From Phoronis australis (Eukaryota > Animalia > Phoronida): a DNA stretch of 64,000 bases. The notes below the pieces were generated by a model. That model made no database searches and was not told the DNA's origin. It saw nothing but the letters and a program-made list of their open reading frames with translations. The translations under genes and the position numbers were made by a program. Of the stretch, positions 12,402 through 53,500 are shown piece by piece (positions within the stretch are counted from its first letter, which is position 1; every line of letters begins with the position of its first letter). Location: positions 135,913 to 199,912 of the forward strand of contig NMRA01000680.1 in NCBI GenBank assembly GCA_002633005.1. The letters are read 5' to 3'.

Positions 12402-12686
12402 GTAGTCATTGAGGTTTACTTGCAAGTGATATTTTACAGTTTAAATGGCCAAGATCATTAATTCACTCATTCACTCCAGCTTATTTCGATACTCTATAAT
12501 TGTTTTCAAGTTGCACTCAAAACAAATTCAATATTTCACTCCAGTGTAGTCTAATACGTAAAAATTATTTAAAAATTCTCATTCTCGGCAAAAATGCACA
12601 AAAACTCGAGTTTACTCTATTACTTTCATATACTCAATATTGTTTGGCAAGTTGCACTTCCTAAACGAAAGATAATTAGTTTACGA

Positions 12687-15600
12687 TCACGCTTTGGTCT
12701 CATCCTCATACAACGGACCGACTTTATTCAAATAAGGCTTAACAACATTAAACGTTGGTATCTCAACAGCGTACGGGCGGACATGGACAATGGCATCTCG
12801 AGGAATGTCTTGTACTTTCGAGCGCTGTTTTGCTCGTCGGTGAAGAATGAAGAAAACCGTTAGCGCAGTCAACAGTGTTGCAAACACAACGGACAGTATG
12901 ACGATCAACGTGGTGTGGTCTACGTCACCTGCAAATGACCAAAGAACTGACTTAGTAAACGTGCATTCTTACGTACGCCTCATAGTTTTGAGACAAGTGA
13001 ATCCATGTTTCTAACAGTAAGCATCATTTTACCAATACAAAACAATGTCTCAGATGAAAGAAAGACGCGGAGACGTGTATTTCTAAATTTTGAAATTTCA
13101 ACCAGTTAAAAACAATTGAGTACCTTCAATGATGAATGGAACGCTGATATGGAAGTCATCCTGAAGCAAATCCGCCTCAGCTTTTGAGCCGCACACGTTC
13201 TGTGGAGATGGAGATAACAAAAATAAACAGTAAAGTAGACGGCAATACACATTTCTTGGACAATTTTCAAACGCCTAATCACGATTGATTTTCACAAAAA
13301 ATCAAATACGCTACGTACAAACTTTCAAAACGAAAATTTAAAAATAGGTTTGTCGCCCTCAATGTGTTTACGATGGGTCTCGTAATCTAGGAACGGCAAC
13401 ATCATTAGCCTGGGGCGATTTATTTGGGGACTTTCACTTCTTCCGAAGTCCGCTGGTCTCACTACACGCAACCGGAAGTGTTTTCTAGGCGCACCCTAAC
13501 GGCTGAAAGTCTCCCATTAACCACAACAACATGACGTGTATGATCTAAACCGGCAGATTCTAAGGTGCTCAAACCGGTTGAGTGTCCCAATCTCGACTCA
13601 GCTGACAGTAATGGTGTGGAAGCTTCAATGATAACGTCAACAGCAACAACAAGTGCAATTCATTACTACGATAATAGGTAACAAAATTAAACATTTTAAA
13701 ACAAATTATTGGTTACGGTTCTATAAAAAGTTCATATGAAACCAGCAATGGGAATTATGTCACAGAAATGATACTGGATTGGTAGCCCAGCTAGCTGACT
13801 TCTACTTCCGCTATACTAAGTGTATAACAACAAAAGTGTGAAATCGGTAATAAATGCACCTTGATGCAAAAACTGTCATCATTTCTTGTGCAAATTTTCA
13901 GTGTTAGAGAGTAGACAATGTCTTGTCTGGATCCTGGCATAACAACACCAACTGTCGATGCGTTGAAGGGCGGTGATATCGCCTTGAAGAAGCCCTCGTC
14001 TTCTTCGAATTTCGAAAATCCATCGCTCCTCGGCCAAAACGTGCGATTGGTCTCACTCAACAGTGGGCAACTGCAATGAATTTCCAATGCGTTTACTTTC
14101 ATTCTGCTTCTACCAGTAACGGGAAATATTTAATTTTAACACCAGCTTTGGTTCTTCTTTCACTTAATTTACATTTTTTGAAAAAACGAAATTGATCAGA
14201 AATCGCAAAGGCTGTCGGTTTGACTCCAACTCTGAAATGCTTACCCTATACCACTGCTCAGCACATTGGTATGATAAATGACACTAAAGAACACAAGATA
14301 ATGTTTTAACTTAATCACAAGTTGGCCAATTATCACGCCATCGCAAAAACGAGTCTTAGTCAGGTAGAGCAATACACTGTACATCACGTAGCCACACTAC
14401 TCTGGTTAAGGGAGACACTGAAAATGTGACGCGTACACAAACAGATGCCTTTATACTTAAATCGAAGAATTCACTTTCTGACATCATTAATTGTACTGCG
14501 TACGGTGAAACTGGAGTATTACACACAATTACCATGGGCCAAAAGTACACGTGATGACCATTTTTAAATAACGACACGAACCAATTTGAATGTAACATAG
14601 CCCTGTCATTTAAGTTATTGATGTTAATCAAGCCATCTCTGGTTTCTAGGACATCCAGTAGTCCAAGGGAACTCTAGTCTGATGGTGTGCATGTTTTCTG
14701 TACATGATTCTTTCGCATTTCGCTTAATCGTCGTGCGGGACCGTCTGGAGTTGGTATATGGTGCAACTCGGGACGGTCTGGGGTCTACAGAAAACCACAG
14801 CTCAACTGTGACTCTACAACAATGTGATAAACGAGAGTAGTTCTACTTGCTGCGTCAGCTGCTGGTATGCTTATTTCTTTTATGACACACAATGTGTGAC
14901 TGGGAAAAGCGTTTTCAAAATAATTTGGATAAATCAGTGGAGTATGAGACCCCTGAGGTCCCTGTCAAGTCCTCACGGCAATTTTACGTTATGCGTACGT
15001 CATTGAACGTACGTGAAAAACAATATCTAAACATTTTCAATTATGTTACTGCATTTGCACTCGTGCGACATCGAAGACGACAATAATTGCTCATTATACA
15101 TGTACTTGCAAAAACACGAAGCATTTTGAGTGTGCCCCGATTGACTTCATTCTCGCGATGGTTTCCGGGTGCATCAGTGATTGTCGTAAGGAATGCTGAT
15201 AAAATCTTCAATGCAATGCTGTAAGGCTCAGTTCTGCCTTATTAGTAGACCTTTGGATCAGTGCATCTTCAGAATAGTGAGCTGCTCATCTGATGTGGTA
15301 GTGAACGTACAGTATGACTTAATTTATTGTGCATTTGTTACAATTAAAAGTAAAACCTCCATGAAATTAAGGTTTTGCTGGATCATATGACTTTTTTTCA
15401 AAACATTAACAAAATATTGGGGAAAACGATTACACAGAATTTTTGGGAAAAAGAAAAATGATGTTTTGATCCACAAAGATTGGTCCAAATACGTTTTACT
15501 TTGCTTTTTCGCAACATGCCGTATAGTAAAAACAAACGTTTTAAGGAGGAATACGGACCAATCATTAGCGCATCTACCCCCTTTAACAGATTCTTTAGCA

Positions 15601-18113
15601 ACAGTATACAAATTTACCTGTCTCGCATGAGGCCTGTGGTGAACGCTGTGTCATTTTGTTTGGCCCACAATTCGACGGCTGTAATTCCATTGGCAACTTC
15701 AAGAGAAAAGGATGCACTTTTGAAATATACCAAGTACGACAGCAAATTGTAAAAAGTGATAGATTTGCTGCTCAGTAGTTAATTGGTTAGACCTCCTTCT
15801 ACAGCAGTGAAGTAATTCGATTCCGAAATCATGAAATACTTTAAAAGTCCAGGAGACTTTTTCTCAGTTTAAAGCATATTTCTTCAACAAAGTCTGCACT
15901 CCAGTGGGAAACTTCAAGGAAGCAATGGGGACTAATCACGTGGGATCAGTGACTTATATCGCCACCTACATGTAGTTGGGTACCTGGAGTCACTTTGTTT
16001 TCGCATCGGGTAGCATATAGGGGAACAGTTTGACTTACCAAATGGACCCTTTTACACTGTATTTGATTAGACGTGACGATTTTTAATAAAAGATATAAAG
16101 TGACTCCTCGTCCACTAGGGGCCACTAATATCCGGTCCCAAGTGAACAGTCGCTATTAAAAGTCTCCCATTGGCCATCTAGTCAATGTCACGCAACCGCA
16201 AGTTTTACAAACGATGACCATTTCGGGGTCTAAAGGGCAGTTAAACAGATGGGCTAAGCGGAAGTGTACTGACTGCTTATAAGGACAGGACAATCTTCAC
16301 ATTTCAAAAAGATTAGTATAATCACGTACTTGACGATTTCAACAGCGTCAACACTATCACTATTTTCTCGTCTTGCCTGGCCGTGGTCACAGGATCTTGC
16401 GGTGCGCTTGATCTGGCCACGTATGCTGAATACCCAGGTTGCCTGTGGACAAAGGAAGGGTTGTCATTTTATTTTTATTTATTATTTATTTTATTATTGT
16501 GATATTTGAAATGAGGGTGGCCTCCTCAGTGATAGCATTGCTTTCCAAGAGGTCCTCATTCGTATGTTAAGAGGCCAATTGCCTTATCCTATGTGGTTTT
16601 AGGGGACACGGACCCCCTAGTTACATAAACAGCAAAAAATTAAAACAAAAAACAACAACGTCGGCTTTCCATTTTGGGGGCCTTCATGGAATTTTTACTC
16701 GAAAATTATGGTCTCCTGGCACTTAAGATGTCTTAGTTCCGCTTCACCATCCCAGGTCCAAATTAAGTGTAGAATTTTTATTCAAGCATATATCCACCTG
16801 TGAGCAAGGCAAACTTTGTAAAACCGTTTCAGACCCCCTGCCCTGTCGTCGTCAATTTCAACTGGCTTGTCATTATTTCGCACGCAGTCTCCACCGACTT
16901 CCCTTAAGCACCCCCATGACGTCACCGAGTATTTAGTATTCAATCCGGTCACCACCATCAAAGCCTCTCAAAATTACCACAAGTGTGTCGATATTTCTGA
17001 ACAAAGATGGTCTCATTTGCAACAGGAACAAAGCGCAATGCATCATGCATGTAGGTCTTCAGCAGGACCCACTTTACAAGATACTTTAACCTGCAGGGCT
17101 CTAAATTTCTACCACTTGGACTTGAAATGTGAACGATGAAACTGATGGTAAAGTATCACTGATCCCAGACCAGTAACAGGAACAAGCATGGTGATTTAAG
17201 ATAGGTATTTGAATTTCACTATACTTGGCCCTTTGGATAGAGCTTGGGACTTCACTTAGGCACTCTTCGGTTCCACCTCCACCGCAATTGACAACAAACA
17301 TGGCATCACTTCCGGTCAGCTGACCAAAATGGCGGATCATGTAGAACTTGAAAACGTTTGGGTTTCCAGCCACCTGTAAATAGATGTGCGTGCTAAATCC
17401 CGGTGCATTGGGGACTTGGGGAGCAGGATCCTGCCATTTCCTTCGGGTCAGCAAAGAAATTGGCTTCAAAGATAATCAGATAATTGCTCGCCCACGTGAT
17501 AACCTAGATACGCGCCAGTGCACATGTTGGTACTGCAACCTCAGGGATGATGTATGTATACTGTTTTCACTGCTACGCTTCACATGGTCTATAGGCGGTG
17601 CGCCCATATAGCCCCCATTTTTCAGTCGGCTGCGCCGCCCATGGTATACAGATATTTTGCTTTCGAATTCGTTTTTTAACTATGAAAACACTATAAGCAG
17701 TTCCTGGCTTCATCAAAATGAAAAGGCTTAATTTCCTTTCATGCTCTCGCATTAGCCTACACAGCCTAAATGTCCATCATTACTTTGGAAGTGCCGTGAA
17801 ATCCGCGGCATTTTGGCAACAAGTTTGATTTTGTTCGTGCTCGTTTTTCAAGTTTGCTTCCACTGAATCGATGGCACAACACTCTCGCTCAAAATTGAAA
17901 CTCACGTGGGTCAGCGTGTTGCATCCCCTACTGGCCGTATTTCCAACTGTTAAACGAATCACAGTTTCGCTACCATCGATGTCGGTATAACATTTGGGTT
18001 GGGATAACATCGACATGCTATCTTCCTCATGCATAAAGAGTCTTGAAAATGGTCGGTTAGCGGTGCGAGGCCTGTACAAAATGTCAACGCTGTCAACTTT
18101 CCCTCCGACTAGT
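12687..18113 (-). CDS. ZP (zona pellucida) module-containing single-pass membrane protein; spliced, 5' part unresolved
   Basis: Phase-consistent exons 18113-17906, 17373-17225, 16902-16798, 16442-16330, 15696-15618, 14070-13860, 13199-13124, 12928-12687. ZP-N-like: ...KCY...RGCNTLTH...FKFYMIRHFGQLTGSDAMFVVNC. ZP-C-like: KIVIVLTL, ELWAK, LMRDSCP, SPPFNA, IVYSLTLKIC...FC...VC. EHP-like FHISVPFII, TM helix LIVILSVVFATLLTALTVFFIL followed by HRR and a short tail. The donor at 17224 and acceptor at 16903 are weak. Confidence 0.72.
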
Positions 18114-19228
18114 CTACACAAGAACGTAACTAAAACATAATAAACACAGATATATCACTATCCCAACTGTTCATGCATACATGAAATTTCGTTCAAGATA
18201 CGATGAAAAAGTATTAAACAGTATGAAATACCTTGGTGTTGTGTCCACGTTCTCTACGTCAGGCCAATAACATCATTTTTACTGTGAGGACAAGTGGCTT
18301 TGTTTTCCATCCATGAAACCAGTTTCAATTATATTTAGAGTATGTAAAAAGCCATGACCTGTCATGTACGCGAACCTGCCTTCCAGCAAAAATATTGAGA
18401 CCGCTGTGTTACGTAATGCACTATGAGATACAGTGTAAAAGAGATGCGAAATGGCGCAAATTGTTTCAACATTAAAAGGGACGAGTCCATATTTTAGTCC
18501 CAATGCACAAAGCGTGTAACGGCATAACCCGTACTGCATACTTAAAACAGACTGTGAAACGTCCATGTAAGCGAAACAGTTTTCCAAATTCAACCGCCAA
18601 GAAACACATTCTAGTTGCATTAAACCAGTCAAGTCCGTCTTTGGCAAAAGACAAGAATGTACTTTCTCAACAATAAAAAACATCTACTTCACCTGATGCT
18701 CATGCAATAAGTAGGGTCGATCAGTTGGAAATGCTTTATTGGGGCAATGCCCAATATTTATGGGATTTGTAACAAATTTTGGCTGTGGACCTATGAATTT
18801 TACTTGTTGAGTTGTGTTTATAAAGCACACCAAAGAATTTTCTTCGAAAACGCATCATTTTATTCGGGCATACCAAAATAACAAAAGCGCATTGTTATTG
18901 CAATGGCTGTACGCAACACGTATTCACAAATCACGCCTCTTGCATGACGCAAGCATGGGAGTACATGTATGTCTTCACAGGTATGACATTTCATTTTTCT
19001 CATTTCTGAACTCGGATAATGTGATGTTTTGGCCCGAAAAAACAGACGGAATGCTGTTGTTTGAAACCAGAGGCTGGTGACTTGTCACCGCAGGTACTGG
19101 TCTCAAATGTAATGAGTTCTCTCTTATTTCCAAGACCAGAAATATCACCTTGAGAACAACGTCAAGTGGTCCTAAGAAAAAGTTCATAGCTGCTTGCATG
19201 AAAAATTTCTAGCACCATTTGAATGTAC

Positions 19229-19343
19229 CTTGCCCATCGGTACTTTCCCGAGCGTACATTCTGTCCTCATTAATCAAGCATCGGACTCTTTCTTCTGCAT
19301 TGTTCCTTCCCTTTTCTTCACATGTCGTCCATGAGCAGTTAGT
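19229..19343 (-). CDS. Candidate linker exon between the giant gene and the ZP exons
   Basis: ctttctag acceptor and gtacat donor; open frame TNCSWTTCEEKGRNNAEERVRCLINEDRMYARESTDGQ. It starts in phase 0, matching the end of the 20687-20565 exon. Confidence 0.4.
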
Positions 19344-20564
19344 CTAGAAAGACAATGGGATGACAACAAGGAAGGATAACTCTGAATCTTAGACAATTGA
19401 TCATTTCTAAGATAGTCTGATACAGAGATTATTTACATCACATTGCAAAGGAACGTGGACTACCTGTCATCCAATGCAGACTGAAACCTAGTGATGAAAA
19501 TAGAAGCCCTAAACCCACATTTCACGTAGAAAACAACTGATATTGTTGCTTTATAGCTTTAGTCAATAACTCGATGAAGTCCTTCCCATCCGACAATAAC
19601 CACAAAAATGTATTTCAGTCCATAAAGCCAATAATGTATTTTAATTTCAGGGAAAACGGGGATAGGCCTATCTGGAAAATCAACTTGAAACTCAGCAACC
19701 TTGGTAAAGGGAATGATATAACATGTGGTCAATTACAAAAAATATTGGTGTACACTGCTAAAGAAAGTTTGGACGGAGTGGACGGCAAAATGAGAGCGGC
19801 TCTCCTAGCTTATTTATCGCCTGCCTGAAGGCGTGTACTGAAGATAGCCGCTTTATCCTGCGTCGGCAACGGGAAAATATTAACTCTGATCTTATAGCCC
19901 TCAAGGCCGACGGGAACCAGCGATACAAAAAAATCCAAAATTCTGAAGAACCAAAAAACACTGATAGGCAAGTCTGAAACTCTACGATCCAATGGAAACG
20001 CTCAGGACCTCGTGACATCTGTTTATATTTGACACTCCGAGTAGAGTTCATTAACTGCCTCGCAGCTAGAAAAAAAACCTAGCCACAATCACGTGTTCTC
20101 ATTAAAAATACACAGCAATATCTCAGATAATATCGTGAATTGTTGCTTTTTAGCGATGTCCTAGCGTTGGTCCTTGCGTTATTGAACTCTTCTTTGATGT
20201 CATGGCGTTGAACTTGTTGTGTCACTCTGTCCACACGAGGGCGCTGCGACGGAAGGCTGCTTTTAGATATTTGCTGCTCTAATTGATTTGGCATCTGTTT
20301 GTCTCACTGCCTTGTTTTGTGGTCTACATGTAGGAGTTTTTGAATCTATTTCAATCTGGTTTAATCTATAATTAAACTATGCTGCTGCAGGTTTCAGCTT
20401 CGACAGTAAAGAACATTTAAAGGAACAAGTGCAAACACCAACAATCAAATGCAATGAAGGCACAGAGGCATTTCAGGACCAATGCCATCACCTCAGCGGG
20501 GATACACTGAGCGACCGTGGGGCCGCTCGCACTAAAATTTGGTTAAATTCCAGTCAATACTCAC

Positions 20565-23500
20565 TTCTTTCAAACTTTCATGAAGAGCCACCATGGCGAT
20601 CTGGGTGGGATACATCACCTGCTCAGTTAGTTCACGTTTTTTCCTGAAGGCTTGACGTGGCTTCCGCGTAGGTCTGGTATCGCACAACTACAAATAAAAC
20701 AACAATGCATTCATGGCCGCTGTTGCTGGGTTACCGGACAGGAGGTTCGCTAGCCAGGTCATGGATCATGCGAACAGTTTGATTTCCCGACGGTGTATTT
20801 TGACAATGACTTCTGCATTGTCTCTCTATGTGTTCAACATACAAATACAAATAAGCATTCAGCGAATTATTGTCATGTGTGGCAATAGTATAAATCGTTA
20901 ATGTGATACAACCTGTCCAACTACAGTGGTTTTAGTCCAGATCACGTCCTTCCCCAGATTGAAGTCATCACATGAATTACAAGATTCACACAATTCCTTC
21001 CATTCAGTGTCATCTGCAAGTATATAGGCATACAATTTAGGAAACACATTAAACCAACATGTAGCGCATCACTTTTACGAATGCAACCGGTTTCAAAAAA
21101 CTTGTCCAACGTTGAATTCTGTTACGAATCACATGCAGCTGACATTCTATGTTACACTCACTTGTCATTTACAAAAATACGCTGGTCCATATTCAAGAAC
21201 CAAGCTCTTCGTTAGACCATTTACACAGCTGAAAACCTTTTTGGATGTTGCTTACGCGTATCCACTTGATGTCATGGCAAACACCTTCTTTCCATTTACC
21301 TGCCCCTGTTAATAAGACACTAGGCAACATCAGCAAGGAAATACGTACCATGCAGTCGTGACTCGAGTTTGACTAAAAAGCCAAAGCAAGGCACGCTTAA
21401 TAGACCTTAACCGTTGTGAATCGAGTACGTGACTAAAGAAAAAATAGTTTCTGCGTGACTGAGAATTTCAACTATCAAACGCAATGTTTGCCTAAAATGT
21501 AGGGGGGCTCGAATTCTTGAGGACGTGGAACTTTTCCTAACATAATAAAAAACGGGGGAGGAAAAAAAGAAATGGGATACCACGTTCGCAGCTGTGAATT
21601 GTTTGGTCACGCCTTTATAGTGGACTTTTGTATAGTTTTCTCAGATTTTTCGTTCATTTCGCTCAGTGTTTGAAGTCCAGTGTCCGTAAAATGGGGTACG
21701 TTTCTGCGGACGGCCACTTAACAAGTGTGCAGCAGTTTGTTTACGTTAACAGCTTCGCATTTGGTTTACTGCTGTGATAAGTCATCTGGCTGTCTGTGAG
21801 TGAAATGTGCCTGAACATTAGGTTATTTAAACTGTTGCATTATTCTCATTTAATTTTGAAAGTTGATTATGAGTTGTCGACCAGCGGAATGTTCTTGGTC
21901 ACAATCGACTCACATTTGCCAAAGACACGCCTATAAATATCCATAAATAGTTCCATTGCCAAAGCAACACTGTCTGTGACCTGGCATACATATGGTGTCA
22001 TCACCCTGGGTTGTTACCAGTTGTGTAAACCGACTGGATACTAGTGTTCTAATAAACTACCCCTACGGAATGAGTTCAGACACTGAGCGTAATGTTCCTG
22101 TGATTCGGACTTTTTTGCCCCCTTCGCCACACGGGGGTATCGTTCAAGCCCCCCTGGGTGCGCGCATGTACATGGACCGCCAACTTCGTATACTTTCAAT
22201 GGACGAAATATGTGGTCTTTCGCACAAGCCCCGTTAGGTCATTCTGCACTAGCGACACCTGGCCAAATTATCTGGTCTTATATCCGGCTAATCATGGCTG
22301 GCTGTTGTGTGGTCGGGTGGTAGTAGCATTGCTAAAACTACTCACGACATCAACAGTTCTATTGTTGGAAGACTTTGATATGCGCTTCAATCCCGAATTG
22401 TTATATTTTAGTTTTACTGGACTGTGGAATAGATGCAAGAATTTCCCGTAACAATACACTAACCGGAGTATGCACAAGATACTTTAGGAGAGTGGCGCCA
22501 CCTCTAGGAAAGTACACAAAAAGATGTCGGATTTTCGAATATGTTGTCTATAATCTATGGCTTGATATGCATAAAACGTTGCATAGAGACGTCGGATAAT
22601 AGAACCCTAAGACTATAGAAACGTCTACATTTTTATTATTTTCGTACTATTGAACCGTCGCATTTCTGAACCTTCGCGCTGTAGAACCTTTTTGTGTTGC
22701 TTAATGTTTTTTTAAATACTTTGGACTGTTGAAACTTCAGACTAAGGAATTCTTTAATCATTTAGACGCACCCATCTACCATAGCCGTAGCATATTTTCA
22801 AGGTGTATTTTTGATAAGGAGTCGCTCCCCAGCAGGCTGTCCCATTGAATGTTACATCGATAAAGGATTTTGATCCAGGACAGGTAAAGAAACAACGAAC
22901 AAGTGACCTCAAAATCAACGTGTTAGTACTAAACACGCAAAACTCGTCTAACTCCACCAAACGAAATAATGCAGCTCGCAAAGTCGATGATGTTTTCACG
23001 TAAACTTCATGTCGCACAAAACCAGGGAGATTTCAGGCACTAGAAATTTTTAATTTTCAACGAAACTATAAGCCAGACTATGCTATCAAGTGGATGTCCT
23101 TATGTTTCATTAGGTCCCAAAACGGACTGTTGAACAAAAGACCTCAAGGAGACAATGCGAGCCATACAGAGGAGGTACTATCTTACCTGGGTCATAGAAC
23201 ATCAGAGCTGGAATTTGTCCCTCCCTTAAGGCTTCACGATCAAACGGAACGCTGACGTCAATAGGGTGAGAGAGCATTGCATGGTCCTCAATAGGACTGA
23301 TGAAGAACGAAGATCCGGTGTAGTCTTCAAACCTGATTTGAATATTATGATAAATGGATTGAAGTAGCGACTGGAACAACGTTAAAACATTAATGACGTT
23401 AAGTGTATCATTTTCGGGATTAGGCGTCATACTAAAGGAAATCTTTGGCAATCAGAACAACGATATTCTTCCACATCCATATCTATTTCATGCATTTCTT

Positions 23501-26500
23501 GGTTTCTGCAATTAAACAAAATTTCAATCTTAAAGGCAGCACCTTAATTTAATTCCACGAAGATTAATTTTGAACGAATGGCCAACTGGATTTTTTACTA
23601 ATTATTCCTTGTTGATGGCCAGATTAACCAGCTTCAAGTAGGATTTATCATTTTGCATTGTTTTGAAGGGGTTAAGACCCGGCTACTGTAATTAAGCAGC
23701 TGATTTACAAGGACCATAGCTTATGTTTTGACAGTTACTAAAATCGAGTTACCTGCTTTTCAATCGTCTTGAACTCATCGTTTCCTCCCTGCTAGTTTCT
23801 GGATCTTGAATATACTGCTGGAATGTTACGGAAGCAGCGGAGCCGTATCGCGCTTTGACATCGAGTTTGTTTAATGTGCCCGCAATAACGGATGTATTGC
23901 CTGAATAGCAAGAATTGTGACAGAAACCCAGAGTGAACTGCCAATTACAATTTTCCAATTCTTTCAGTTGCTGAATGTGCCATGGTGCCAGGCTAATCAT
24001 GTGCGCTTGATATGGTGTAAAGGTGTCTCAAAGGAGCTCGTGTTCTGCACAATGCAAAACAATTCAATGGTGTTTAATACATGTTTAAACTATAAAAATG
24101 CCTTAGCAAACCGTAAAAAATAATTTTAAACGATTAAGTCAAATTGCTTACAAACGAACCTACCTGTTATTTCGATTGCAATAGGAGGCAAGGTTTTGGC
24201 GGAAAGGTCTGAAGACGGCTGTTCCAAGTTCATAATCGTTGGCTTTTCGACTTCAAGTTTGCGGATTATGTCGCTCTTTCCTAAAAGTAAAGCAAAATAG
24301 TGCATATGTAGTTAGAGAAATTCATGGTGCTACATTTGTTCTGCAGACAGCCAATGGTCAAGGAAATTTCATTCTTGCTTATGAAACCGTAAACCAATCT
24401 CCTTTGGGATTATACAGGTATCATTCAAATTTTCTGGCGGCAGCTTTAACTGTACTTTTGTTCTATGCAATATGTTAAGAATTTTCTTTGCAATTTCAAC
24501 TTCGGATTTTGTGTAACCCAAATCATGTTATCAAATGAACAAACGTACTGGCCACACAAACTTCTCTCGTTGCAATATCAAGCTTTACTTTAGCCCTAGA
24601 AAGAGCAGTCAGTTTCTGGTAAGTGCACCTCCCAGGCTCCATACGGAAAAAGGTATCGCCTGCGTCTTCTGTTTCCGTTGTACTGTTACCTTTAGGCACC
24701 ACCGACAGACTGCAATAGGTAAAGTGTAATGATTTTTGTAGAGTAATAAGGCAATCCTGTGTCGATCATTGAGTGACACTTCTGAGTTGATCAAAAAGGG
24801 AGGCAAACACTGAAATAATATTTACCCATATTAATTTCTATGCGTGAGCAGCTTAGTAACTAAAAGTGCAAGAATGCAAGTTTGGCTGCAACAAAGTCAT
24901 GGATTACATAATCATAATTGATATAGTGACTATTACATTTGCATCTGAAAAATTAAGCAGGACAAATGCTTGACACATGGTTGGTATTCTTGGTAAAGAA
25001 CTTGAATTAGAGGGAAGGCTTACTATTTCTGAAGGGGCCGATGATATCAAAATTTAGTGTTTTCAAAATTATCTATGTCTATGTAAAATTGATACTTGTC
25101 AACAGAGCACCGCAGTGTCCACTATAAAAATATAACGTATATGTACTTAAAGGGAAAAATTAACCTCACTAATGTAACCATATTCTGGAAGAAATAATTA
25201 AGTACTTCATGACAACCGATATGCTCTGCTAAGAAGACAAAGTTTCATTCCCGCTTTTTTCCTGACTATACAATGTATGTTTCCAATAAAGAAGTGACAT
25301 TGTACGAAGATCGTTAATGATGCGTTAAGTTAGATGAAGACCTTCCGAATTACACAATGAATTTTTAAATTAAAAGCGAAAAAATTAATTCCGTATGATT
25401 AGGGGTCTACATTGTCAGCATACTCAGTTGGTCACGCGAGTCTCTATCCTGTTGATGAATCAGCATGGATGTAGAAACAATACCCATTATGATACCTAAG
25501 AGTCTGGTTCATTCCCACATAATGCAGTGTACCGTCCGCAATTTCCACTCCACTAGATGTCTCGCTACCAGCCAGAATGGTAGGCAATATGTCCGAGACG
25601 TCGTTGTGGGAGCCTATTCCCCATTCTGCAAGTTAACGGAAGTCATTAGTAAAGCCATGTCAACATCCTCAGATTTTCTATACGACCTCGAGTTCAACTT
25701 TAGCAGCACAGCTTAGTACACGTCAATTGTCTTGTGCGGCTTTGCATACACCTAGTTAGCTCGAAAAATCTTGTCGGACTAACTGCGCACGCAATCTAAT
25801 TCGGTTGCGTGCAACAGTCGAATACGAAAGTAGACTTCTGTACACGTGGTTCATTAAAAATTCGAAGTGTGTATACAAGGCTAAAAAACACTCGTATCAG
25901 TTGAATGTTTTATGTTAAAAATTAACTTGCAAGGTTCCCATTCTTACTGTGCATAAACAACAATAAGCTAAACTCATTTACAGGATGAGCCTACTAACGA
26001 AATTTGTAGAACATACCGATAGATGCTGAAGTCTTGGTTTTAATTTTCCATCCAATCCCTGTGGTTGTCATGAAATCTGTTATCAGGACTCCTTCAGGTA
26101 AACCTTTGATTGTTCTCGTATTTGGCAACTCAATGCTGATAACTTCAATGTCAGGCGGTTCGAAGTCAGTGGTTACATTACACGAAGATCGGGAGCTTAA
26201 GCCGAGAACGTTAATAGCGTCCACGTTGAACCAGTACCTTTTTCCATGAAAAAAGTCTTTTTTGAATTTGTTCCTTTCAAAAACAAATTCTTTAACAGTA
26301 CCAACACTTTCTCTGGTCACAATGTCATCTAAACCTTCCTCTGAACCCACTGATAATACGTAAGTCGACACGTCTGATTCAACGTCTTCACATTCCCAGT
26401 AGGCCCCGATACCTTCTTTTGAACCAAGATATTCTGTGGGTTCTGCCGTTGAGCCTTTGGGATCCAAACAGAGTACCTGAGTGCATGTAGGCGGTGTAGT

Positions 26501-38500: not shown

Positions 38501-41500
38501 GAAAGTCAGAGAAATAAGTCCCACTGGAAGACGCTCCTATTGTTTGACTAGCTTAGATGATTAATTTATGTTACACTGTATGTCAGATTTTAGTGTAGAT
38601 CCTAGCATAATTCAGTGAACTCTACCCTGATAGCCGTCCGGCAGGTGAGTGAATTTCAATACTACTTGGCTTATTTAAAAGTCAGGTATCCCATGCTGAT
38701 GTGAGCTGTGAAACAGAAACAAAATTATAATCTCATTGTCGGCGTATGTTGAGCCGATTTATCGCGTAACAAATGCGCAGAACTGATGCGACACCTATGT
38801 CAAGCTGATTAACTTCCGAGAATACCACCTTAAAGCAACGGATTTTGTATCAGTTTAGATCGAACAGTTGCACTCGATAACTGCGAGTTAATTCCTGTTA
38901 CCTGACACAAGTCAGCACTTTACAAGACGCTTACATGTACTTGTGTCAGCTCATTGCTTGACTTCGTCGTTTTACACCAAGATATCGTCAAAGTTTGATT
39001 CAAAACCCTTCCAAATACATTGAGTTTCTAGGCAAACGAGATGTTTTATTTAGCTGTTACTGATTTTATTTGAACGTATCGCAGGTTGCAAAGTTCGGTG
39101 GACCTGTTTGGTGACAAATTTGAATTACTCTTCCGTAAAATACAGACAATAGGACACAGCTGTGTGTTGTAGTTTTAGACTTAGGATTTTTTCATTTCTA
39201 AGCACACATAACACAGTAGCTAAGAACCCGATCAGGCCGCTGAGGACTGGAGACATCACCTGCCGGGTTAGTCGGCTGCCAGAAAAAAGTTCCAGTCAAG
39301 AAAAGACTCGACTAGTGAACCAAAGAAATAAGGTGCGCGTGAATTGGCCACGAAATTGCAAATAAGGTTGCTCTTCCAGTGAACCGCCAGGGCAAAAGTT
39401 ACAATTCCAATATATATAAGACATATACATATGCACATACATATACATAAATACATACATACGAAAAAACACACACACACACACACAAACACACACTACA
39501 GCTTTCTGTCTGCAGAATTCTGAATGAGCATGCGCTCACACGGCCTGGGTGCCCGCTCAATTAGAAGTGAACTTTAAGCTGTTAATGCAGTGTGATTTAC
39601 TCATTGTTGGTTTCTTAAAACATTTGCATTCACGAACATGCGGATGGCATTACAAGTTGTATCCACTGAGACAGACTTTTAGTTACAAATTTACATGAAC
39701 TTTTGTTAGGGGGACAATATTTGATTTTGAAATAGAACGCACTATAATAAAGGTCTATATGTACATGACTAGTTAAAATCAGACACGGAGGTCTTTCACG
39801 CCCTCGTACTTGGTATTAACGACGAACTTTTCATTCTTTACTGCCACAATACATTTCCGAAGCATATGGGTTTTCAGACGAAATAAAAAACGATATACCA
39901 CTGACGTCGTTGCGTCGTGTACTCGTCTGTCTCTCAGGTTAACGCGACACTTGGCGAGGTAAACTCGACCGTATAGGAGGTGATTTGGATATAGACCGAT
40001 TAAGACGGTAGAACACGAATTAAATCGGGTGGCATTTACCGTTAAGAAAGTCAAGACGGACATGACCATGGCTATGTTTTCTGCTTGCACGAAGCCGAAA
40101 GCGCGCTGGATTCTGAAGCGAAGCTAACGAACCAAACTTTGAATCCATAACGGAAGAGAGCGGTGCCTCCTCTATAATTGCATCGAAAAATATAGAAGTT
40201 GCTTGTCTATTGTCCATGATTTGCATGTATGGTAACATGACATACGCTTAAGGAGATATACATGTACCTGAGATGTAGTTATTGCTCATGGTGTACTCTA
40301 AATCGACTGTTTTCTCGTGACCATTCAAAATTGTGCTTGATCCAATTCCATCTTTTATGACACTGAAACACGCCAAAATGACCCCAGTCCAATTAAAGAC
40401 GTTCAGGTGATGACAAAATTTTGATAACGAAGTTGCCTTCTGTATACGTGTGACTAACATCTGCAATGGGAGACTGGGAATAGAATGAAACACATATTTA
40501 GCACACACTCCCAGACTTTTTGTAATGATACTTTAACAGTGTTACCGATTCAATTGATAAAGTGAAAGGAGATGACTGATATTACTCAGTGCTGTAGTGA
40601 CAAGATTAGAGGTACTGTAAGTAGGCGCACAAAGCCCACCGTTTCACTTTGAGCACTAAACGTAACTTACAGCGCGTAGGCGCTACATGTTCAAATGCCA
40701 AAAGGTGATTGGCTGCTCCTACGTGCGCCTACGCCCACTACAGCACTAATTTTACTCATTCAGTCAAAGGTGTCGTACATGTACTTCCCTCACTTATAAA
40801 TCCTCTTACCGGTGGTTTGGGTGCCATGTTAATTCCGTGCACCGTTGCGTAACTGACGCGTTACACCCATCATGTCGCAAGATGTCCAGGCTTGCATTTG
40901 CAATGGGTCCAGGCTCAGGGGGAGTGAAGTCGACGACTGTGCCTTTCGACGACAAGTAACTCTCATAGCCTAATTCATTTGTGATATGAACATTAATGAA
41001 ATACTCCTGGGAATGACTAAGTGGGAGGTCGTCGTACTCGAACATGTGACTATGACCAATAAGCCTTTGGTAATTGTGAAAAGCGCCGCTGTGTGTTAAC
41101 TTGGAAAATTCGCCATCTATGGTGTTCTGCAAAAGACACTGTTCACTCTGGGGATTGTAATCGAAAGAAATACATTTTGTTTCAAATTTAATACATTCAG
41201 CCGCACATATCAGATCAGAAAATGCTTTAAAAGTACGAAATGCCTCCGAATCCAGCCTTCCACGCCTAGGGTAGCCAAAGTGTTTCAATTCGTTCGACAT
41301 ATCGTCGTTCTGTGTTATTGCTGATGGTTTGAACGGTTCCCAGTCTCTAATCGTGTTGCCAAATGGTCCCCGGCCAACGCCAACAGCCTTGTACTGTATT
41401 GGCTCCAATGGAGAATCATCGTGTACGAACACGGTGGCACTTAATTTGTGGGGGTGACTTGAAAACTCGTACGAGGCATCCACTCTTCCGTTTGGAAGCG

Positions 41501-44500
41501 TCATATCGTATGTCTTCAGTGAACACTGGGCAGTGCTTTCCAAACCCTGAGAATTCCTTACTTTGACAGTCCAATATAGTGGAATGCCGTGTTCCATCAC
41601 CATCGGGATGACCACTGATGCTCCACCCATATCGGTCCAAGAAAGAATGTTTGTGCCGCCGACATGAGTGCCAATAGCAAATCGCCTTTTAACGTCGCTA
41701 GTTTTATCAGATGCACTGACTTCTAACATGAAGGCGGGGTCTGTAGGTTCCCGGTTAGTCATTTGTGTTACTGTGCACCCGCGAATCTCTGGCGGTGCTG
41801 GGCACTTTTTTACCCGAGATTTGTCGAGAATAACTCTGTTGATGCTGGGGCAGGACAGGTCGAAGATTGTAATAGAAAACCTCGTTTTAAAGATGAAAAA
41901 GTTGAGCTCTAGATACGCAGACAGAACCAATCGAATGGGAATTAGCTCCAGGTGTATTTGAAAGCTGAAAATACACGAATACGTAATCTCACTTAAAGAC
42001 TTTTTCTCCGAAAGTTCGTGTAGTCGTGTAGCTGTGGGGTTGTTGTAACAGTTTCTTATTTCTGCTTAACTAAGATACAAATATTTACCATGCAAATGAA
42101 TCAATATGTTAAGTGTAAGGTACAAATAGTTTATCATCACTAGCCACGGTCTAGAATGTAGTTTATTGTAAACTACATGTATTTTGAAGCAGTAAGAGCT
42201 CACCGTGTATCGAGAGGAAACTTGTCGTATTTGAGAGTAACCGTAACTGGGAATTTTACAGTTAGAAGGTAACCAGTCAGTTCCATCCCTGCTTCTGCAA
42301 TTATGATATTCAGGCTCACACGTCCCCACACTTTGGCTCCAACGGAAGGAGTGACCATACCCTGTGATTGAAATTGGTAGAACCTTAGGTTATTCAACCA
42401 CCACGTGTAGCAAGAACTAAATGACAATGCCGCTTTAACTTCATCTACGCTAAACTAAAGTGAAATTGTATTCATCTACAGATTGTAAATGTGAAAACAA
42501 ACAATCTGTGTCAGAATAAATATTGATTATATAATTACTGGACTTAGTTACATTGAAGTTGCCCAAAATTTGTACATATGTAACTTAAAAATCATGGGGT
42601 CAAACATATTTCTGGATACTTTTTGTGTAAACATGTGTTTAAAACCATGGGGACAAACGTCTTTACACCTACTTTGGAAGTTTACACGTTTACGTGCTCA
42701 CATAGCCCCCATAATGCAGTGTTATTGCCCAGGACCACGTCACGATACTAAATATTGTTCAGATCGTTTTCGTCACAAAAATCGTTCCTAAAAACCTTTG
42801 GCAATTCTCAACCTACTTCATATTATTCACAGCATCGCTATATGTTGTCTTTCTAATTCGACCAATACATTAATTGCAGAGATACACTGTAAGGAATTAG
42901 CCTGCAAGTTCCATTTCAAAACAATCGTTTATTAGGCATCCCGAAGCATCCCAGGTCATCAAACACCACCTTCTAGTTACGGGTAGACGATCAAACTGTG
43001 TACGCATGTTTTTACTTACGTGTGCGGTGTTACTTGCAAAACACGCTTTTAACTCGGCTGAAATACCCAGGACACCGCCAGCTCCAAATGCTTGAGAAAA
43101 CATAACGGCAAATCATGATACAACGTTTGGATACACCTTGTGACAAATGCTTGCTTTAAGCGGAGGGACATATAAGGTTCCGTGTATTTTTTGGCAGAAA
43201 TATTTAGTTTTCTAACCTTAAATTTCACATATTTTCTATTAAGTTATATCTCTTTACAAAACATATGTGTAGGCCAAAAACAATTGGAGGCAGGAACAGA
43301 GAGGTAGAGAGGGAAGGGAAGGAGCGAAGGGAAGTGGAGGAGGGAGGACGGAGAGAATGCTCTACATGTACATTGACAGATGTTACAAAACGCTGTGGGT
43401 CATTAACAGACCGCCCTATGAACTGTTCATGCGACCTTCGCAAATTGGGAGAATTTACAATTTAAAAACGCTACTTTTAAAAAATGCCCTTATGGTTGCC
43501 CACTGAACCCATGTAGTATGAAATTATTTTCATTTAACTGAACCAGTTAAAAGAGCCACGTGACAGTCTCTTAAAACAAAACATCGATAAATATGATGAC
43601 GTAAATTGCAGTAGGCTACTAGAAATGACGCCACCAGAAACAATTTCGATAACATAGAATGTGGTTATTGTAAACGGGCTACGAAAACGGGACAAGTCAT
43701 GAACAGGGTCGTACAATTTTAGAACCAGTTTGATGCCTATAAATCAGTAGAGATAAACCCGTCTAGTTCTCAAGCTGTAGGATCCTCTAAGTGACTACAA
43801 AATAGGTTTCTACGTGTAGCTGTGCCCGCGTAACAAAATGGTAGTGTTCAAAATTAACTGTACAAACTTTAACAGACTGTCAAACTAAGATAAACAACCG
43901 CTCAAAATTAATTCGAAGTTTAGTCCAATTTGTGTCGTCACAAAATGGCGTTGAAACAGATTTTAGATAATGTGCGCACCCAGTGGAGGCTCTGGGGGGG
44001 GGGGCTCAAACGTGCCCCCATTTTGCAAAGTGGGCAAAAAGTTCCGTCTCAATTAAACAAAAAGTCCGGTGTGCGTATGTTAGATGTACATTTAGTCGCA
44101 GTTTTGTGCGCCAAAATGTGGCAAATGTTGTCGTTGACCTGTTTATTTGGAAAACTACTGAAATACTTATCTGCAGACAGGTTACACGTATGCATTTTTG
44201 CCAGTGAGGATTATTCAAGATCGACAGAAACGATCTTGTCATAGACAGATGACAACTTACCAAATTTCAGTCCAACTGGTCCCAGCCAGAAAGTAAATGA
44301 CGGTTCGTTCTTAAAAAAACTCAAATCCTTTTCTCGTGAAAAATCAAGAGCTGTCATACAGAAATCTTCTGTTGCAGGAAATGCGTCCGATAAATTTTTT
44401 CTAAAAACATCAGGATTGGACATCAGCTGCAAAAATAAAGATTGGTTAATTATGAATCTAGAAAAGTACCCCAGACCTCCTGCTGTTTATATTTCTTTTC

Positions 44501-50500: not shown

Positions 50501-53500
50501 ACAACTGAAGAACCATCTGCTCAAATGAACCTCGAGGTTCAGTCTTCTTCGCTCGTAGCATACTTCGAAGTTTGCTTGGGCTGAACGTCATGGGGTGTTG
50601 GATGGGTTGGTCTTGAAGAGTTGCAGAGAATTCGGCCACTAAATCCATCAGTCTCATCTTCGTGTCAAGTTGACCTCCATCCTCTAAAATCTTGCTTATT
50701 TTGGCCAGCGTGAATTTGTTGACATTGAACGCGTCCAAAATATTTGGTGGGCGCCTAAAACACAACAGTTGTCGATCAAAATACAATTGCAAATCAGCAC
50801 TAAATTTACCGAAGTAGCTGATCAAACAGTGTAAGGCATATGACAATAACAAAGCATCATAACGAGAGATGGCGGAAGTACAAGTAAAATTAAATGGGTC
50901 AGACGTAAGAAACAGAAGCGCATACCGCTTACCTGTCATTTTTGGAGGACATGGCATTATCTTTAAAATTTTTAAGTTTTCCCATAGTTGTCAAAATTTC
51001 AACTGTGCTCTTTTTCTCCTCTTCAATTGTTTCTTCAAGATTTGTTTTCGCCTTTTTCATCAAATCTTCAACTCCATTTTTTGCCAATTTCTTGAAAGAC
51101 GAAATCTTCTTAGATACTTTAGATTTCAATTTTCCAGATATGGATTTGAAAAAGTTCGAAGTTTTAGGTTTTTTGGTGTTTTTACTACGACTTTTGTTTT
51201 TTCTCTGTTTCCAAGCTTTCTTTGCTTTCTTCAATAGCTTTTTGGGCAGGCCAAAGCGCTTTTTGGCAACCGTTTGTCCTATGAATTCGAAAGACAATTC
51301 GTTACAATGCTCCGTCCAGCGTGGGAAGGGAACCAGTCTTTCCACAAATGGAGTCGGGTCCACGTATTTGTAATCGTCGTCNTCTCTTTCTTGTGCTTCC
51401 ACTTCGCAGTCTTGGAAAGTTTTCGTGTGACAAGATGTATAAACTTCAGGTTGCATTCCGATTTCATGGAAAATCCGATCACCTCTCCTTCCCCAAGAGT
51501 CACTCCGTCGTTGGTGATATTTTCGTGTGGTAAAATATTTGAAATGATGATTTCGTATTTTTTGAAGTTTGCGTCTTCCGGATATATTACGACTTCATGG
51601 TTGTTTTTTCTTTTGACACAACCAACTACCGGACTAACAATCTGGAAATAAAATTGCAGCCTCAGAATTGCTACCAGAATAGTCACAGCTACCGCTAGGC
51701 GATAAGAAATGAATAGTGACAAAACGTTGTGTTGTGGCAATTATCTGATAAAGAACTGGGGCGTTGCAAACACCATAGCACGCAAAAGAGATGTTTACAT
51801 AGAAGTTGACAGTTCATGCTATTGTTCACTTGTTGACTATCACGCAGCAATGGCAACAGTTCCGATCTTAATTCCAGAATAGTCTAAAGTAGACCAAAAC
51901 TGATTTGGACATTCTACATTCATCTACACCGAAAAAGCACCGATGTAGAAACATTTCCATTAGTAAAATATTGTGAGTTTTTATTTTTAACTGTACGAAG
52001 GTGGTAGTCTGCCATTTAGGTTGGCAAATTCACAAATCGGTCTAAAGCAATGCTTTTGTCGTTGTGAATGTTTAAAAGTGCGACTGATGACAACCGACTG
52101 GCAGTCCGTCATTGTGTTTCTCGGAAGGCTTTCCAGCCTCTTCACAGAGGCAGAAGCTCCGTTTTGCGACACATGTTTAATCAATAATTATAGAAAGAAT
52201 CTTGGCGGCGATGTATAGTTTTACATGTGGATAAAAGTTGCCAGAGGCAAAAAGATTGTTAGAAGTGTTACAAGCTTGACTGGAAGTAACCCACGAACTG
52301 CCAATGATGCCTTCACAGCAAAACTCAAGCTCAGTCGGTATGGGAGAAGAAGGACCAACAATATAATCTCGCCTTTAAGGTTTGCAAATGAGCACTCATC
52401 TTGTAAGAAACAGCCTATACGTCAACGAAGATTAAATCAATGGTATGTTCTTAAATAGCGCAATTGTTCTTGCAAGTTTGCTGATCTTACTAAACTATGC
52501 AAGCGGACGTCGGAACGTGAATGTAATGTTACCACCTTTTTACCGTGTACTAGCAATGCATGACTGGAATGTTAAATAATGTAACTTCTTAATTTCCATG
52601 ATACAAGAAACGACTGCGGCGACCAAGAGATAGTGAAAAACAATCAACTCACCTTGCCGTCTCTTGGCGCCTCAACATCAATACCTTTAAGCCCGTTGAT
52701 TGATTTTGAACCAAATACGCCATCAGCGCATCTGTGGACGTCGGGGTCGACACGGCGTGTAGGAAACTGAGCATTGAACTTGGGTCCAAAGGCCTTTCGT
52801 ATTAGAGACCTGGTTTTATCAACCCTAAAAAAGACGTACCCGTGGCGGTGCGCTAACTGAGCAGTGTGAATTTACACAAAGTACATGTAATACTATGCAA
52901 ACTAAATTAAACCAAGTTGATATACAAGTATGTAATATGCCACTCATCGTACAAGAAAAGATCTAGATTTGATTATGCTGGGTTCTGACGACATGCTAAC
53001 ACTGCGTTCTATTGTTAAAAGAAGCCGTTAGCCAGATGTTACCGCATACTTACACAGTTTTCAATTCCATGTATGAATTCTTGATACTGCGGATTGCGTC
53101 AAAAACTGATGTGTAAGCCTCAACAAAGGGATCACCTAATTCAGCTAACTCGTCCAATGGGTTGAGTGTGTCTTTCAGTATCTGGAGAAACCTTGAGACA
53201 ATTTCTGCTTCTTGTTCTTCCTAAATAAAAGACCAATGCAACCACTATTATCACACAGCGTGATTCCTTTTGTGGCTTCCCCGTGATAAGTTCGATCTTC
53301 GTTTGGGATGAAATTAAAGAACGACCAGAATGCCTGAAATCGTTTTCGCATTATAACCCAGTTCTTATTCCCTGTTTTATATACACCCATATTTGGGATC
53401 ATTCAAACATAACAGTCAATGAAGACACAATCGATGATCGGATCGCATCCAGTCACAGGTTACGCCTAGCGAGTCACTTGTAGAGAATTTAAAACGTTCA

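What the first reader, a model, noticed from the sequence alone, without database searches (positions are those of the whole stretch)
12687..20687. The giant gene may splice directly into the ZP module and TM exons
Seen: the last clear exon of the giant gene (20687-20565) ends at a strong gtgagt donor with no stop or TM segment. The ZP exons lie 2.4 kb downstream on the same strand with no evident start or signal-peptide exon of their own, and a phase-0 Cys-containing exon candidate (19343-19229) sits between them. Inference: a single >4,300-aa type I membrane protein ending in a ZP module, analogous to DMBT1 or tectorin but with a different N-terminal cargo. Caveat: I could not find a clean exon bridging 19229 (phase 1) to 18113 (phase 2), and an alternative terminal exon exists at about 20323-20279.
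Basis: inference. Interest (0 to 1): 0.75.

Follow-up and report, generated by a model that had tools for sequence, protein, structure and literature searches.

The report
Giant receptor with swapped-in ZP stalk
RNA reads show that a giant invertebrate gene splices straight into exons that likely encode a zona pellucida (ZP) module and a membrane anchor, at the spot where its relatives carry a different stalk, so this is likely a domain swap in an unstudied family of cell-surface proteins.

Summary
The link is real. Stranded RNA reads join 20565>19343 (19 reads) and 19229>18129 (13 reads). 13 of the 15 junctions from the big exon to the stop are seen in reads. The 15 exons are GT-AG and form one open frame with one TM segment. 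The modelled length is about 4,340 aa inside the window, and the gene starts beyond it. It belongs to an unnamed family (Lingula, molluscs, lancelets and others): lipoprotein-type N-terminus, PAN, FN3-like repeats, then a domain whose homologue folds like ZU5/GAIN-B with a furin-type loop before its last strand. All 35 relatives with that domain complete continue into a cadherin-like/EGF stalk; none of the 24 scanned has ZP. Here a ZP-like module sits there instead. ZP identity rests on cysteine spacing and strand pattern (about 85%); no HMM or fold match was obtained. With no furin site after ZP-C, it is probably a membrane-bound stalk rather than a DMBT1/tectorin-type polymer. New variant by domain shuffling; moderate interest.

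The parts
59417..64000 (-). Upstream exons matching the lipoprotein-type (Vitellogenin_N/HEAT-like) helical N-terminal region of relatives; the gene start lies beyond 64000
   Evidence: tblastn of Haliotis P0002 residues 237-519; P0002 has Pfam Vitellogenin_N at 31-291; homology-guided exon model; not checked with reads
51384..52824 (-). Two exons for an M23/LECT2-like domain; an assembly N at 51382 coincides with a frame change
   Evidence: 29-38% identity to five relatives, including the Peptidase_M23 region of P0005; N position
40810..41964 (-). Exon with FN3-like and PAN domain
   Evidence: Pfam PAN_1 E 2.4e-5, above cut-off; 39% identity to P0002
26017..29348 (-). Big exon (about 1,110 aa) of FN3-like repeats
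   Evidence: Pfam fn3 E 3.6e-4, below cut-off; 929 relatives at E<=0.001; its donor 26017>25625 is seen in reads
24549..25625 (-). Exons 25625-25496 and 24709-24549: last FN3-like repeat
   Evidence: junction reads, homology
20565..24280 (-). Exons 24280-24164, 23900-23753, 23332-23187, 21013-20913, 20687-20565: ZU5/GAIN-B-like beta-sandwich
   Evidence: all junctions in reads; spliced tail versus family HMM E 2e-49; model of the Lingula homologue pLDDT 87.8, VIA Z 8.0-8.9 to ankyrin ZU5 and CD97/CELSR1 GAIN
20634..20645 (-). RKKR furin-type site in the loop before the domain's last strand (strand about 20606-20583)
   Evidence: the only R-x-K/R-R after the big exon; strict motif in the same loop in 19 of 33 relatives
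19229..19343 (-). Adaptor exon, phase 0 to 1, three Cys, no known homologue
   Evidence: junction reads on both sides; no Pfam hit; no match to the family stalk HMM
17225..18129 (-). Exons 18129-17906 and 17373-17225: likely ZP-N (Cys at 18118, 17992, 17923, 17286), an extra Cys at 17262 and the start of the interdomain linker
   Evidence: junction reads 19229>18129 and 17906>17373; Cys spacing
13124..16442 (-). Exons 16442-16330, 15696-15618, 14070-13860, 13199-13124: likely ZP-C (Cys at 14069, 13892, 13868, 13193; Leu at the Cys5 and Cys7 positions) ending in an EHP-like hydrophobic strand; no furin site
   Evidence: three junctions in reads, two inferred; Cys mapping against PMC7456536
12687..12928 (-). 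Last exon: TM helix (about 12908-12843), basic stop-transfer stretch, SKV motif (12821-12813), 51-aa cytoplasmic tail, stop at 12689-12687
   Evidence: hydropathy peak 2.7, the only clear TM in the last 843 aa; junction 13124>12928 17/4/0 reads plus X1 contig; motif comparison

Best explanation
One gene splices from its FN3-like repeats through exons 20687-20565, 19343-19229 and 18129 onward to the TM exon, and is predicted to encode a single-pass protein of more than 4,300 aa in which a likely ZP module has likely replaced the family's cadherin-like/EGF stalk. How it most likely works: the precursor would be cut by a furin-type convertase at RKKR, in the flexible loop of the ZU5/GAIN-B-like domain. 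The last beta-strand would stay inserted in that domain, so the roughly 4,000-aa outer part (lipoprotein-type region, M23-like, PAN, FN3-like repeats) would hang non-covalently on a membrane fragment of about 415 aa (strand, Cys adaptor, ZP-N, ZP-C, TM, tail). The ZP module lacks a consensus cleavage site after ZP-C, so it would stay membrane-bound and act as a stiff, possibly dimerising or matrix-binding stalk (endoglin/NompA-like) rather than as a released filament. Origin, inferred: the ZP exons form a phase 1-to-1 cassette that entered ahead of the gene's own TM exon, with the 0-to-1 adaptor exon restoring the frame and the old stalk exons lost. Shown: splicing, frame, homology and the break point. 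Inferred: ZP fold, furin cleavage, non-covalent tether, non-polymerising role, cassette origin.
For: Junction reads for 13 of 15 junctions, with even counts on both sides of the link (X2: 9-17 per junction upstream; 12 and 9 across the link; 11-17 downstream), so no step-up that a separate promoter would give. One ORF, all GT-AG. 9 of the 14 exonic read differences that fell in these exons among the rows shown are synonymous, against 25% expected, p=0.0025. Homology to relatives ends exactly at exon 20687-20565. 35 of 35 relatives with the complete domain go on into a cadherin-like segment: 33 by motif, and P0002 and P0007 by Pfam or by eye. No Pfam ZP in the 24 of them scanned, and no stalk remnant in six frames of the window. 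Cys at 1, 43, 66, 101, 186, 245, 253, 258 against nematode ZP columns 1, 29, 48, 80, 164, 206, 210, 215 (PMC7456536): random placement fits as well in 34 of 20,000 shuffles (post hoc). Leu stands at both Cys5 and Cys7 positions, a paired loss also reported for NompA and CUTL-28. Linker of about 24 residues. Fold of the upstream domain. The S/N/T/A-K-V/I motif after the TM occurs in 11 of 29 relatives against 1.6 in shuffles, at the same offset (7) as in Lingula P0073.
Against: No Pfam hit to any ZP family for single exons, no PDB sequence hit, no homologue of the ZP part, and the single-exon AlphaFold model failed (pLDDT 43). A ninth Cys (17262) and the three adaptor-exon Cys have no place in the standard ZP scheme. 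The full-length linker is a feature of polymerising ZP proteins (PMC7737619), which argues against a purely inert stalk. 14 of 33 relatives lack the strict furin motif in that loop. The fold was predicted for the Lingula homologue, not this protein, with Z only 8-8.9 and Foldseek E>0.01. The reads differ from the window at many sites (mostly 90-99% alike), so they come from a diverged population or a close paralogue. Junctions above 26,017 were not checked with reads.
Confidence: 0.65

Rival explanations
1. Same single gene, but the 3' part (ZP, TM and tail) came as a block from a formerly separate downstream ZP gene that lost its promoter and signal exon, fused by read-through splicing.
For: A phase-1 acceptor at the start of a ZP gene body is what follows a typical signal-peptide exon (established knowledge); ZP shuffling is frequent in lophotrochozoans (PMC9290575 passages); the SKV motif is short and was picked post hoc.
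Against: The motif after the TM matches the closest relatives in sequence and offset; no leftover of the family's own stalk or TM exons lies between 20565 and 18129 or elsewhere in the window.
Confidence: 0.2
2. The module is ZP and does polymerise: a non-furin protease cuts the short loop before the EHP-like strand, and the protein builds DMBT1/tectorin/uromodulin-like filaments decorated with a giant cargo.
For: Linker of about 24 residues, like polymerising ZP proteins; uromodulin is cut by hepsin rather than furin (PMC7737619 passages); ZP-N Cys complete.
Against: Only one Lys and no Arg in the 12-residue loop between Cys8 and the EHP-like strand; the F-x-F motif of ZP-C is not evident; the family's usual stalk is a plain membrane tether.
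Confidence: 0.2
3. The swapped-in module is not ZP but another two-domain, disulfide-bonded beta-sandwich whose cysteines happen to fall in a similar order.
For: No HMM, sequence or fold match; four Cys outside the scheme.
Against: Spacing test p about 0.002; the two missing Cys are exactly a disulfide pair; size about 285 aa directly before the TM; divergent invertebrate ZP-like domains are known to score below HMM thresholds (PMC9290575 passage).
Confidence: 0.15
4. Two separate genes: the giant gene ends at an exon near 20323-20279 and the ZP unit has its own promoter and signal exon.
For: An AG with a short ORF and stop at 20323-20279, and an ATTAAA further down the intron; 8 weaker joints were not displayed; diverged UTR reads could fall under the 90% threshold.
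Against: 19 junction reads against depth 20 at 20580; zero depth at 18271-19204; the three signal-like ATG frames in the two introns have no donor in a fitting phase.
Confidence: 0.03

Closest known systems
Uncharacterised giant family: Lingula anatina LOC106166509 (P0073), Haliotis rufescens LOC124148470 (P0002), Potamilus, Nucella, Ylistrum, Mytilus, Lineus, Saccoglossus, Anneissia, Branchiostoma members
   Same: Collinear homology at 25-57% identity from the lipoprotein-type region through M23-like, PAN and FN3-like repeats to the ZU5/GAIN-B-like domain with its furin loop; single TM near the C-terminus.
   Different: Relatives have Big_9/cadherin-like domains plus EGF (Sushi in some) between that domain and the TM; this gene has a Cys adaptor plus a ZP-like module.
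Membrane-bound ZP-module proteins (endoglin, betaglycan; Drosophila NompA and nematode CUTL-28 for the Cys5-Cys7 loss)
   Same: ZP-N plus ZP-C Cys pattern directly before a TM; paired Cys5/Cys7 loss and an upstream PAN domain, as noted for NompA and CUTL-28 (PMC7456536 section 9).
   Different: No sequence-level match found; full-length linker, unlike endoglin/betaglycan; a 4,000-aa cargo attached through a cleavable ZU5/GAIN-like domain.
DMBT1, alpha-tectorin, uromodulin, molluscan EGFZP
   Same: Large N-terminal cargo followed by a C-terminal ZP module and a membrane anchor.
   Different: These have a cleavage site between ZP and anchor (PMC7737619 for uromodulin, PMC9290575 for EGFZP; recalled for DMBT1 and tectorin); here none, and the basic site lies upstream of the ZP module.
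GAIN (adhesion GPCRs, polycystins), ZU5 and FIIND domains
   Same: Same fold in the homologue model (Z 8.9, rmsd 3.2, 135 aligned to ankyrin ZU5; Z 8.3, rmsd 3.3, 140 aligned to CD97); cleavage position just ahead of the last strand; fragments of cleaved GAIN stay associated (PMC9539791 passage).
   Different: A 18-33 residue basic loop with a furin-type site stands where GAIN has its autoproteolytic motif (recalled); no helical GAIN-A part; followed by a stalk and one TM, not a 7TM domain.

Membership tests
ZP module | ZP-N with four Cys (1-4, 2-3) | tested here: met
   Cys at 1, 43, 66, 101 versus columns 1, 29, 48, 80 of the trimmed nematode alignment (PMC7456536); positional only, bonds not shown
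ZP module | ZP-C Cys6-Cys8 and CysA-CysB | tested here: met
   Cys at 186, 245, 253, 258; Cys4-to-Cys6 distance 85 versus 84; positional only
ZP module | ZP-C Cys5-Cys7 (typical; lost in the members NompA and CUTL-28) | tested here: not met
   Leu at Cys6-18 and at CysA-5; a paired loss with precedent, so it does not exclude membership
ZP module | Profile match (Pfam ZP families) | tested here: inconclusive
   no hit for single exons of 25-124 aa; the spliced domain was not scanned
ZP module | Two Ig-like beta-sandwich folds | tested here: inconclusive
   one 74-aa exon alone gave pLDDT 43, four strands, no helices, no Foldseek match
ZP module | EHP strand between ZP-C and membrane | tested here: inconclusive
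   a hydrophobic alternating stretch ends exon 13199-13124; role untested
Polymerising ZP proteins (uromodulin, tectorin, DMBT1, EGFZP) | Consensus cleavage site between ZP-C and EHP | tested here: not met
   no Arg and no R-x-K/R-R between Cys8 and the TM
Polymerising ZP proteins (uromodulin, tectorin, DMBT1, EGFZP) | Interdomain linker of about 22-26 residues | tested here: met
   first ZP-C strand candidate begins about 24 residues after Cys4 (range from PMC7737619 passage)
Polymerising ZP proteins (uromodulin, tectorin, DMBT1, EGFZP) | Filament formation | not testable with these tools
   needs expression and microscopy
GAIN/ZU5 domain | ZU5/GAIN-B beta-sandwich fold | tested here: met
   in the Lingula homologue: pLDDT 87.8; the top 9 VIA rows are all ZU5 or GAIN, Z 6.4-8.9, unrelated glycosidase rows 5.5 or less; the window's exons match that alignment at E 2e-49
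GAIN/ZU5 domain | Autoproteolytic His-x-Thr/Ser site before the last strand (recalled) | tested here: not met
   no conserved His there; a basic loop instead
GAIN domain | Helical GAIN-A subdomain ahead of GAIN-B (recalled) | tested here: not met
   preceded by an FN3-like repeat; the model is nearly all strands
Giant LLT-PAN-FN3-ZU5/GAIN-like family (LOC106166509 type) | Collinear domain order up to the furin-loop domain | tested here: met
Giant LLT-PAN-FN3-ZU5/GAIN-like family (LOC106166509 type) | Cadherin-like (Big_9) plus EGF stalk | tested here: not met
   present in 35 of 35 relatives, absent from the window; hence a variant
Type I membrane protein | N-terminal signal peptide | not testable with these tools
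   gene start lies beyond 64000 and no genome is held

The most novel reading that the evidence does not exclude
This unnamed family is a class of giant single-pass receptors in which a GAIN/ZU5 fold has traded self-cleavage for a furin loop, giving a detachable 4,000-residue ectodomain held by one beta-strand (an adhesion-GPCR-like release switch without a GPCR). This member has wired that switch to a ZP module, coupling force-triggered shedding or ligand capture to apical-matrix assembly.
Probability: 0.25. Interest if true: 0.78.

Novelty: new variant of a known kind. Interest (0 to 1): 0.52.

Why it matters
It is an RNA-supported, exon-level example of stalk replacement in an old animal gene family that has no name or function, with the break point at a domain boundary and a small adaptor exon fixing the phase. 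It extends the list of ZP architectures (no FN3/lipoprotein-type giant with ZP turned up in the searches run) and shows a ZP-like module too divergent for exon-level profile searches. The side result, a Pfam-less ZU5/GAIN-B-like domain with a furin-type loop at the GAIN cleavage position across brachiopods, molluscs, nemerteans, echinoderms, hemichordates and lancelets, gives a testable idea for how these giant proteins are processed. ZP shuffling is common in invertebrates, which limits the surprise.

Tried and rejected
No genome is held for the window, so paralogues, a ZP donor gene and the gene start could not be sought. Pfam on single ZP-region exons or ORFs: nothing. PDB sequence search with two exons: best E 1.0-1.3. 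Protein search with exon 18127-17906: 8 candidates, none at E<=10. JGI metagenome scans with two exons: none. phmmer of the spliced ZP part against fetched relatives: none at E<1 among 215. AlphaFold of one exon: pLDDT 43, fold search meaningless. The ESM Atlas did not take the ZP exon; for the upstream domain of P0155 it gave only sub-0.9 leads, including a ZU5 cluster at 0.78. The alignment search for further tail-bearing relatives returned 1 protein, with the standard stalk. Pfam and PDB sequence searches with alignment A1 found nothing significant. A finer read map of 15.5-21.2 kb is lacking, which leaves two junctions and any minor isoform unquantified. Acceptor 18113: rejected, reads use 18129. 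The adaptor exon as a remnant of the old cadherin-like or EGF stalk: only a forced alignment, no HMM support. Earlier scan findings: none. Literature: ten searches listed no paper whose title or abstract start describes this family or an FN3/lipoprotein-type giant with ZP; most subscription papers are not held. Liao et al. 2014 on GAIN/ZU5/Nup98 (PMC4258472) was not held (only its title was seen in a reference list) and may already cover this domain. The supplement of PMC7456536 (alignments) could not be read.
Full report
1. Setting. The window is animal-type DNA (GC about 40%, GT-AG introns). No genome is held. A minus-strand gene runs from beyond 64000 to a stop at 12687; a short-chain dehydrogenase gene on the plus strand lies downstream, convergent (Pfam adh_short).

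2. The splice link. Three stranded RNA read sets and one contig set with the same species label were found and laid on 12200-26200 (about 18-19% of each read run was read). Exonic depth is on 'first mate +' only, the pattern of a minus-strand RNA. Of the 15 joints shown, 13 are GT-AG introns of this gene (reads X2/X3/X4): 26017>25625 9/5/0; 25496>24709 17/8/0; 24549>24280 15/12/0; 24164>23900 16/2/0; 23753>23332 16/4/0; 23187>21013 9/3/0; 20913>20687 9/0/0; 20565>19343 12/5/2; 19229>18129 9/4/0; 17906>17373 0/6/0 plus a contig; 15618>14070 13/9/0; 13860>13199 11/3/0; 13124>12928 17/4/0. The other two are repeat artefacts, and 8 weaker joints were not shown. Adding the inferred junctions 17225>16442 and 16330>15696 gives one stop-free frame with a single clear TM. 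At 20580, 15 nt from the disputed donor, total depth is 20 and 19 reads carry the 20565>19343 joint, so the alternative exon at 20323 is at most a minor form. Bins 18271-19204 are empty in all four runs, and signal-peptide-like ATG frames in the two introns have no donor in a usable phase. Caveat: the reads differ from the window at many fixed sites, so they come from a diverged population or a close paralogue, and diverged UTR reads could be lost at the 90% threshold. Of the 40 differences shown (271 were not), 14 fall in these exons; 9 are synonymous, against 25% expected (p=0.0025), so the tail is under selection in this frame.

3. The giant gene. The big exon finds 71 long relatives and 929 proteins at E<=0.001. 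Named ones are all 'uncharacterised' or hypothetical, or carry automatic labels: Lingula (closest in the tail region), Haliotis, Potamilus, Nucella, Ylistrum, Mytilus, Lineus, Saccoglossus, Anneissia, Branchiostoma. Haliotis P0002 (4,591 aa) aligns in order from residue 237 at the window edge to about 4,100. Domains in relatives: Vitellogenin_N or HEAT, Peptidase_M23-like, PAN, FN3-like repeats, Big_9/cadherin-like, EGF, TM. A homology-guided spliced alignment gives about 4,336 aa inside the window; several small exons between 43 and 56 kb are uncertain and none above 26,017 was checked with reads. With the part beyond 64000 the protein would be about 4,500 aa or more. A frame change at 51382 coincides with an N in the assembly and is probably an assembly artefact.

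4. Where homology stops. Similarity to relatives ends at exon 20687-20565. The preceding 210 aa form a domain with no Pfam or PDB sequence match. AlphaFold on the Lingula copy with a 27-row alignment gave pLDDT 87.8, a beta-sandwich with a low-confidence loop (about residues 181-200) before a last strand. The wide structure search ranks ankyrin ZU5 (Z 8.9, rmsd 3.2, 135 aligned), CD97 GAIN (8.3, 3.3, 140), CELSR1 GAIN (8.2, 3.1, 139) and further ZU5/GAIN chains in the top nine rows; Foldseek had the same families on top but no E<=0.001. The loop holds a strict R-x-K/R-R in 19 of 33 relatives and RKKR here. In GAIN domains cleavage at this position leaves the fragments associated (PMC9539791, passages), hence the inferred furin-cut, strand-tethered ectodomain.

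5. The swap. Of 216 fetched proteins, 44 match this domain and 35 have it complete; all 35 continue into a cadherin-like segment (33 by a D-x-D/E-x-D-type motif, two by Pfam or by eye), usually followed by EGF and a TM. None of the 24 of these scanned has a Pfam ZP hit, nor do the 71 precomputed rows. An HMM of that stalk finds nothing convincing in six frames of the window or in the spliced tail. Here the place is taken by a 38-aa Cys exon and about 285 aa before the TM.

6. Is it ZP? Direct tests were weak because only single exons were submitted: no Pfam, PDB, protein-database or fold match. The case rests on anatomy against Weadick 2020 (PMC7456536; passages and the first parts of sections 3 and 9 read, supplement not readable): reference Cys columns 1, 29, 48, 80 (ZP-N), 146, 164, 201, 206, 210, 215/218 (ZP-C). 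Observed: 1, 43, 66, 101, an extra at 109, then 186, 245, 253, 258. Every gap equals or exceeds the trimmed reference, and the Cys4-Cys6 gap is 85 against 84. Random placement of nine Cys fits as well in 34 of 20,000 trials (cost function chosen after seeing the data). The two absent Cys are partners (5 and 7), both replaced by Leu inside strand-like stretches; the paper reports the same paired loss in NompA and CUTL-28, both with upstream PAN domains, as here. Divergent invertebrate ZP-like domains with non-significant profile scores are described in PMC9290575 (passages). I put ZP identity at about 85%. Between Cys8 and the TM there is no Arg and no consensus cleavage site, which favours a membrane-bound module. 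The linker of about 24 residues is polymer-type, though (PMC7737619, passages), so filament formation after cleavage by another protease is not excluded.

7. Origin. The ZP-like exons start and end in phase 1 (18129 and 13124), the symmetry typical of shuffled extracellular modules (established knowledge), and the adaptor exon converts phase 0 to 1. The TM exon carries SKV seven residues after the membrane. A S/N/T/A-K-V/I motif occurs there in 11 of 29 relatives with a detectable TM (1.6 expected from shuffles; 1 of 11 other TM proteins in the set, itself a family member), at offset 7 in Lingula and two more. This leans towards a cassette inserted before the gene's own TM exon rather than fusion to a whole downstream gene, but the motif is short and post hoc.

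8. Verdict. The architecture was not found among the relatives or in ten literature searches, but it is built from known modules by a known process. New variant of a known kind; interest 0.52.

Noticed in passing
window 3646-10900 (+): Convergent short-chain dehydrogenase/reductase gene (retinol dehydrogenase-like by eye); two exons hit Pfam adh_short.
   Followed up: partly
window 51382 and 59769: The only two N bases of the window; the one at 51382 sits exactly where the coding frame changes inside the M23-like exon, so gene callers will probably break the gene here.
   Followed up: partly
window 52824-51384 (-): M23/LECT2-like domain conserved across the family; the metal-binding histidines look incomplete by eye (motifs recalled), so it is probably a binding rather than a catalytic domain.
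   Followed up: partly
relatives P0004, P0007, P0008, P0016, P0028, P0125, P0153, P0203: A second basic furin-type loop near the start of the same ZU5/GAIN-like domain; several relatives that lack the C-terminal loop site have this one.
   Followed up: no
relatives P0153, P0203 (unnamed, 9-kb ENA contigs), P0027: Apparently intron-poor members with the same domain and stalk and a divergent composition; possibly unicellular eukaryotes, which would make the family older than animals.
   Followed up: no
relatives P0006, P0068, P0137, P0176, P0188, P0202: Partial matches to the domain with no furin loop (Cys followed closely by the last strand); P0068 also carries REJ (PF02010), a polycystin-like combination.
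   Followed up: no
window 14720-14995, 16460-16552, 17530-17600, 20080-20145, 21500-21645, 22168-22470: Intronic dispersed repeats with read pile-ups on both strands and loose ends.
   Followed up: no
window 12720-12690 (-): The cytoplasmic tail ends in a Tyr-containing stretch and E-T-K-A, resembling a class I PDZ-binding end (recalled pattern).
   Followed up: no
runs X2-X4: Exonic depth differs strongly among three runs of one study (X2 > X3 >> X4), suggesting tissue- or stage-specific expression; all carry the same fixed differences from the window.
   Followed up: no
relative P0074 (Haliotis asinina): Has the ZU5/GAIN-like domain plus stalk unit twice.
   Followed up: no
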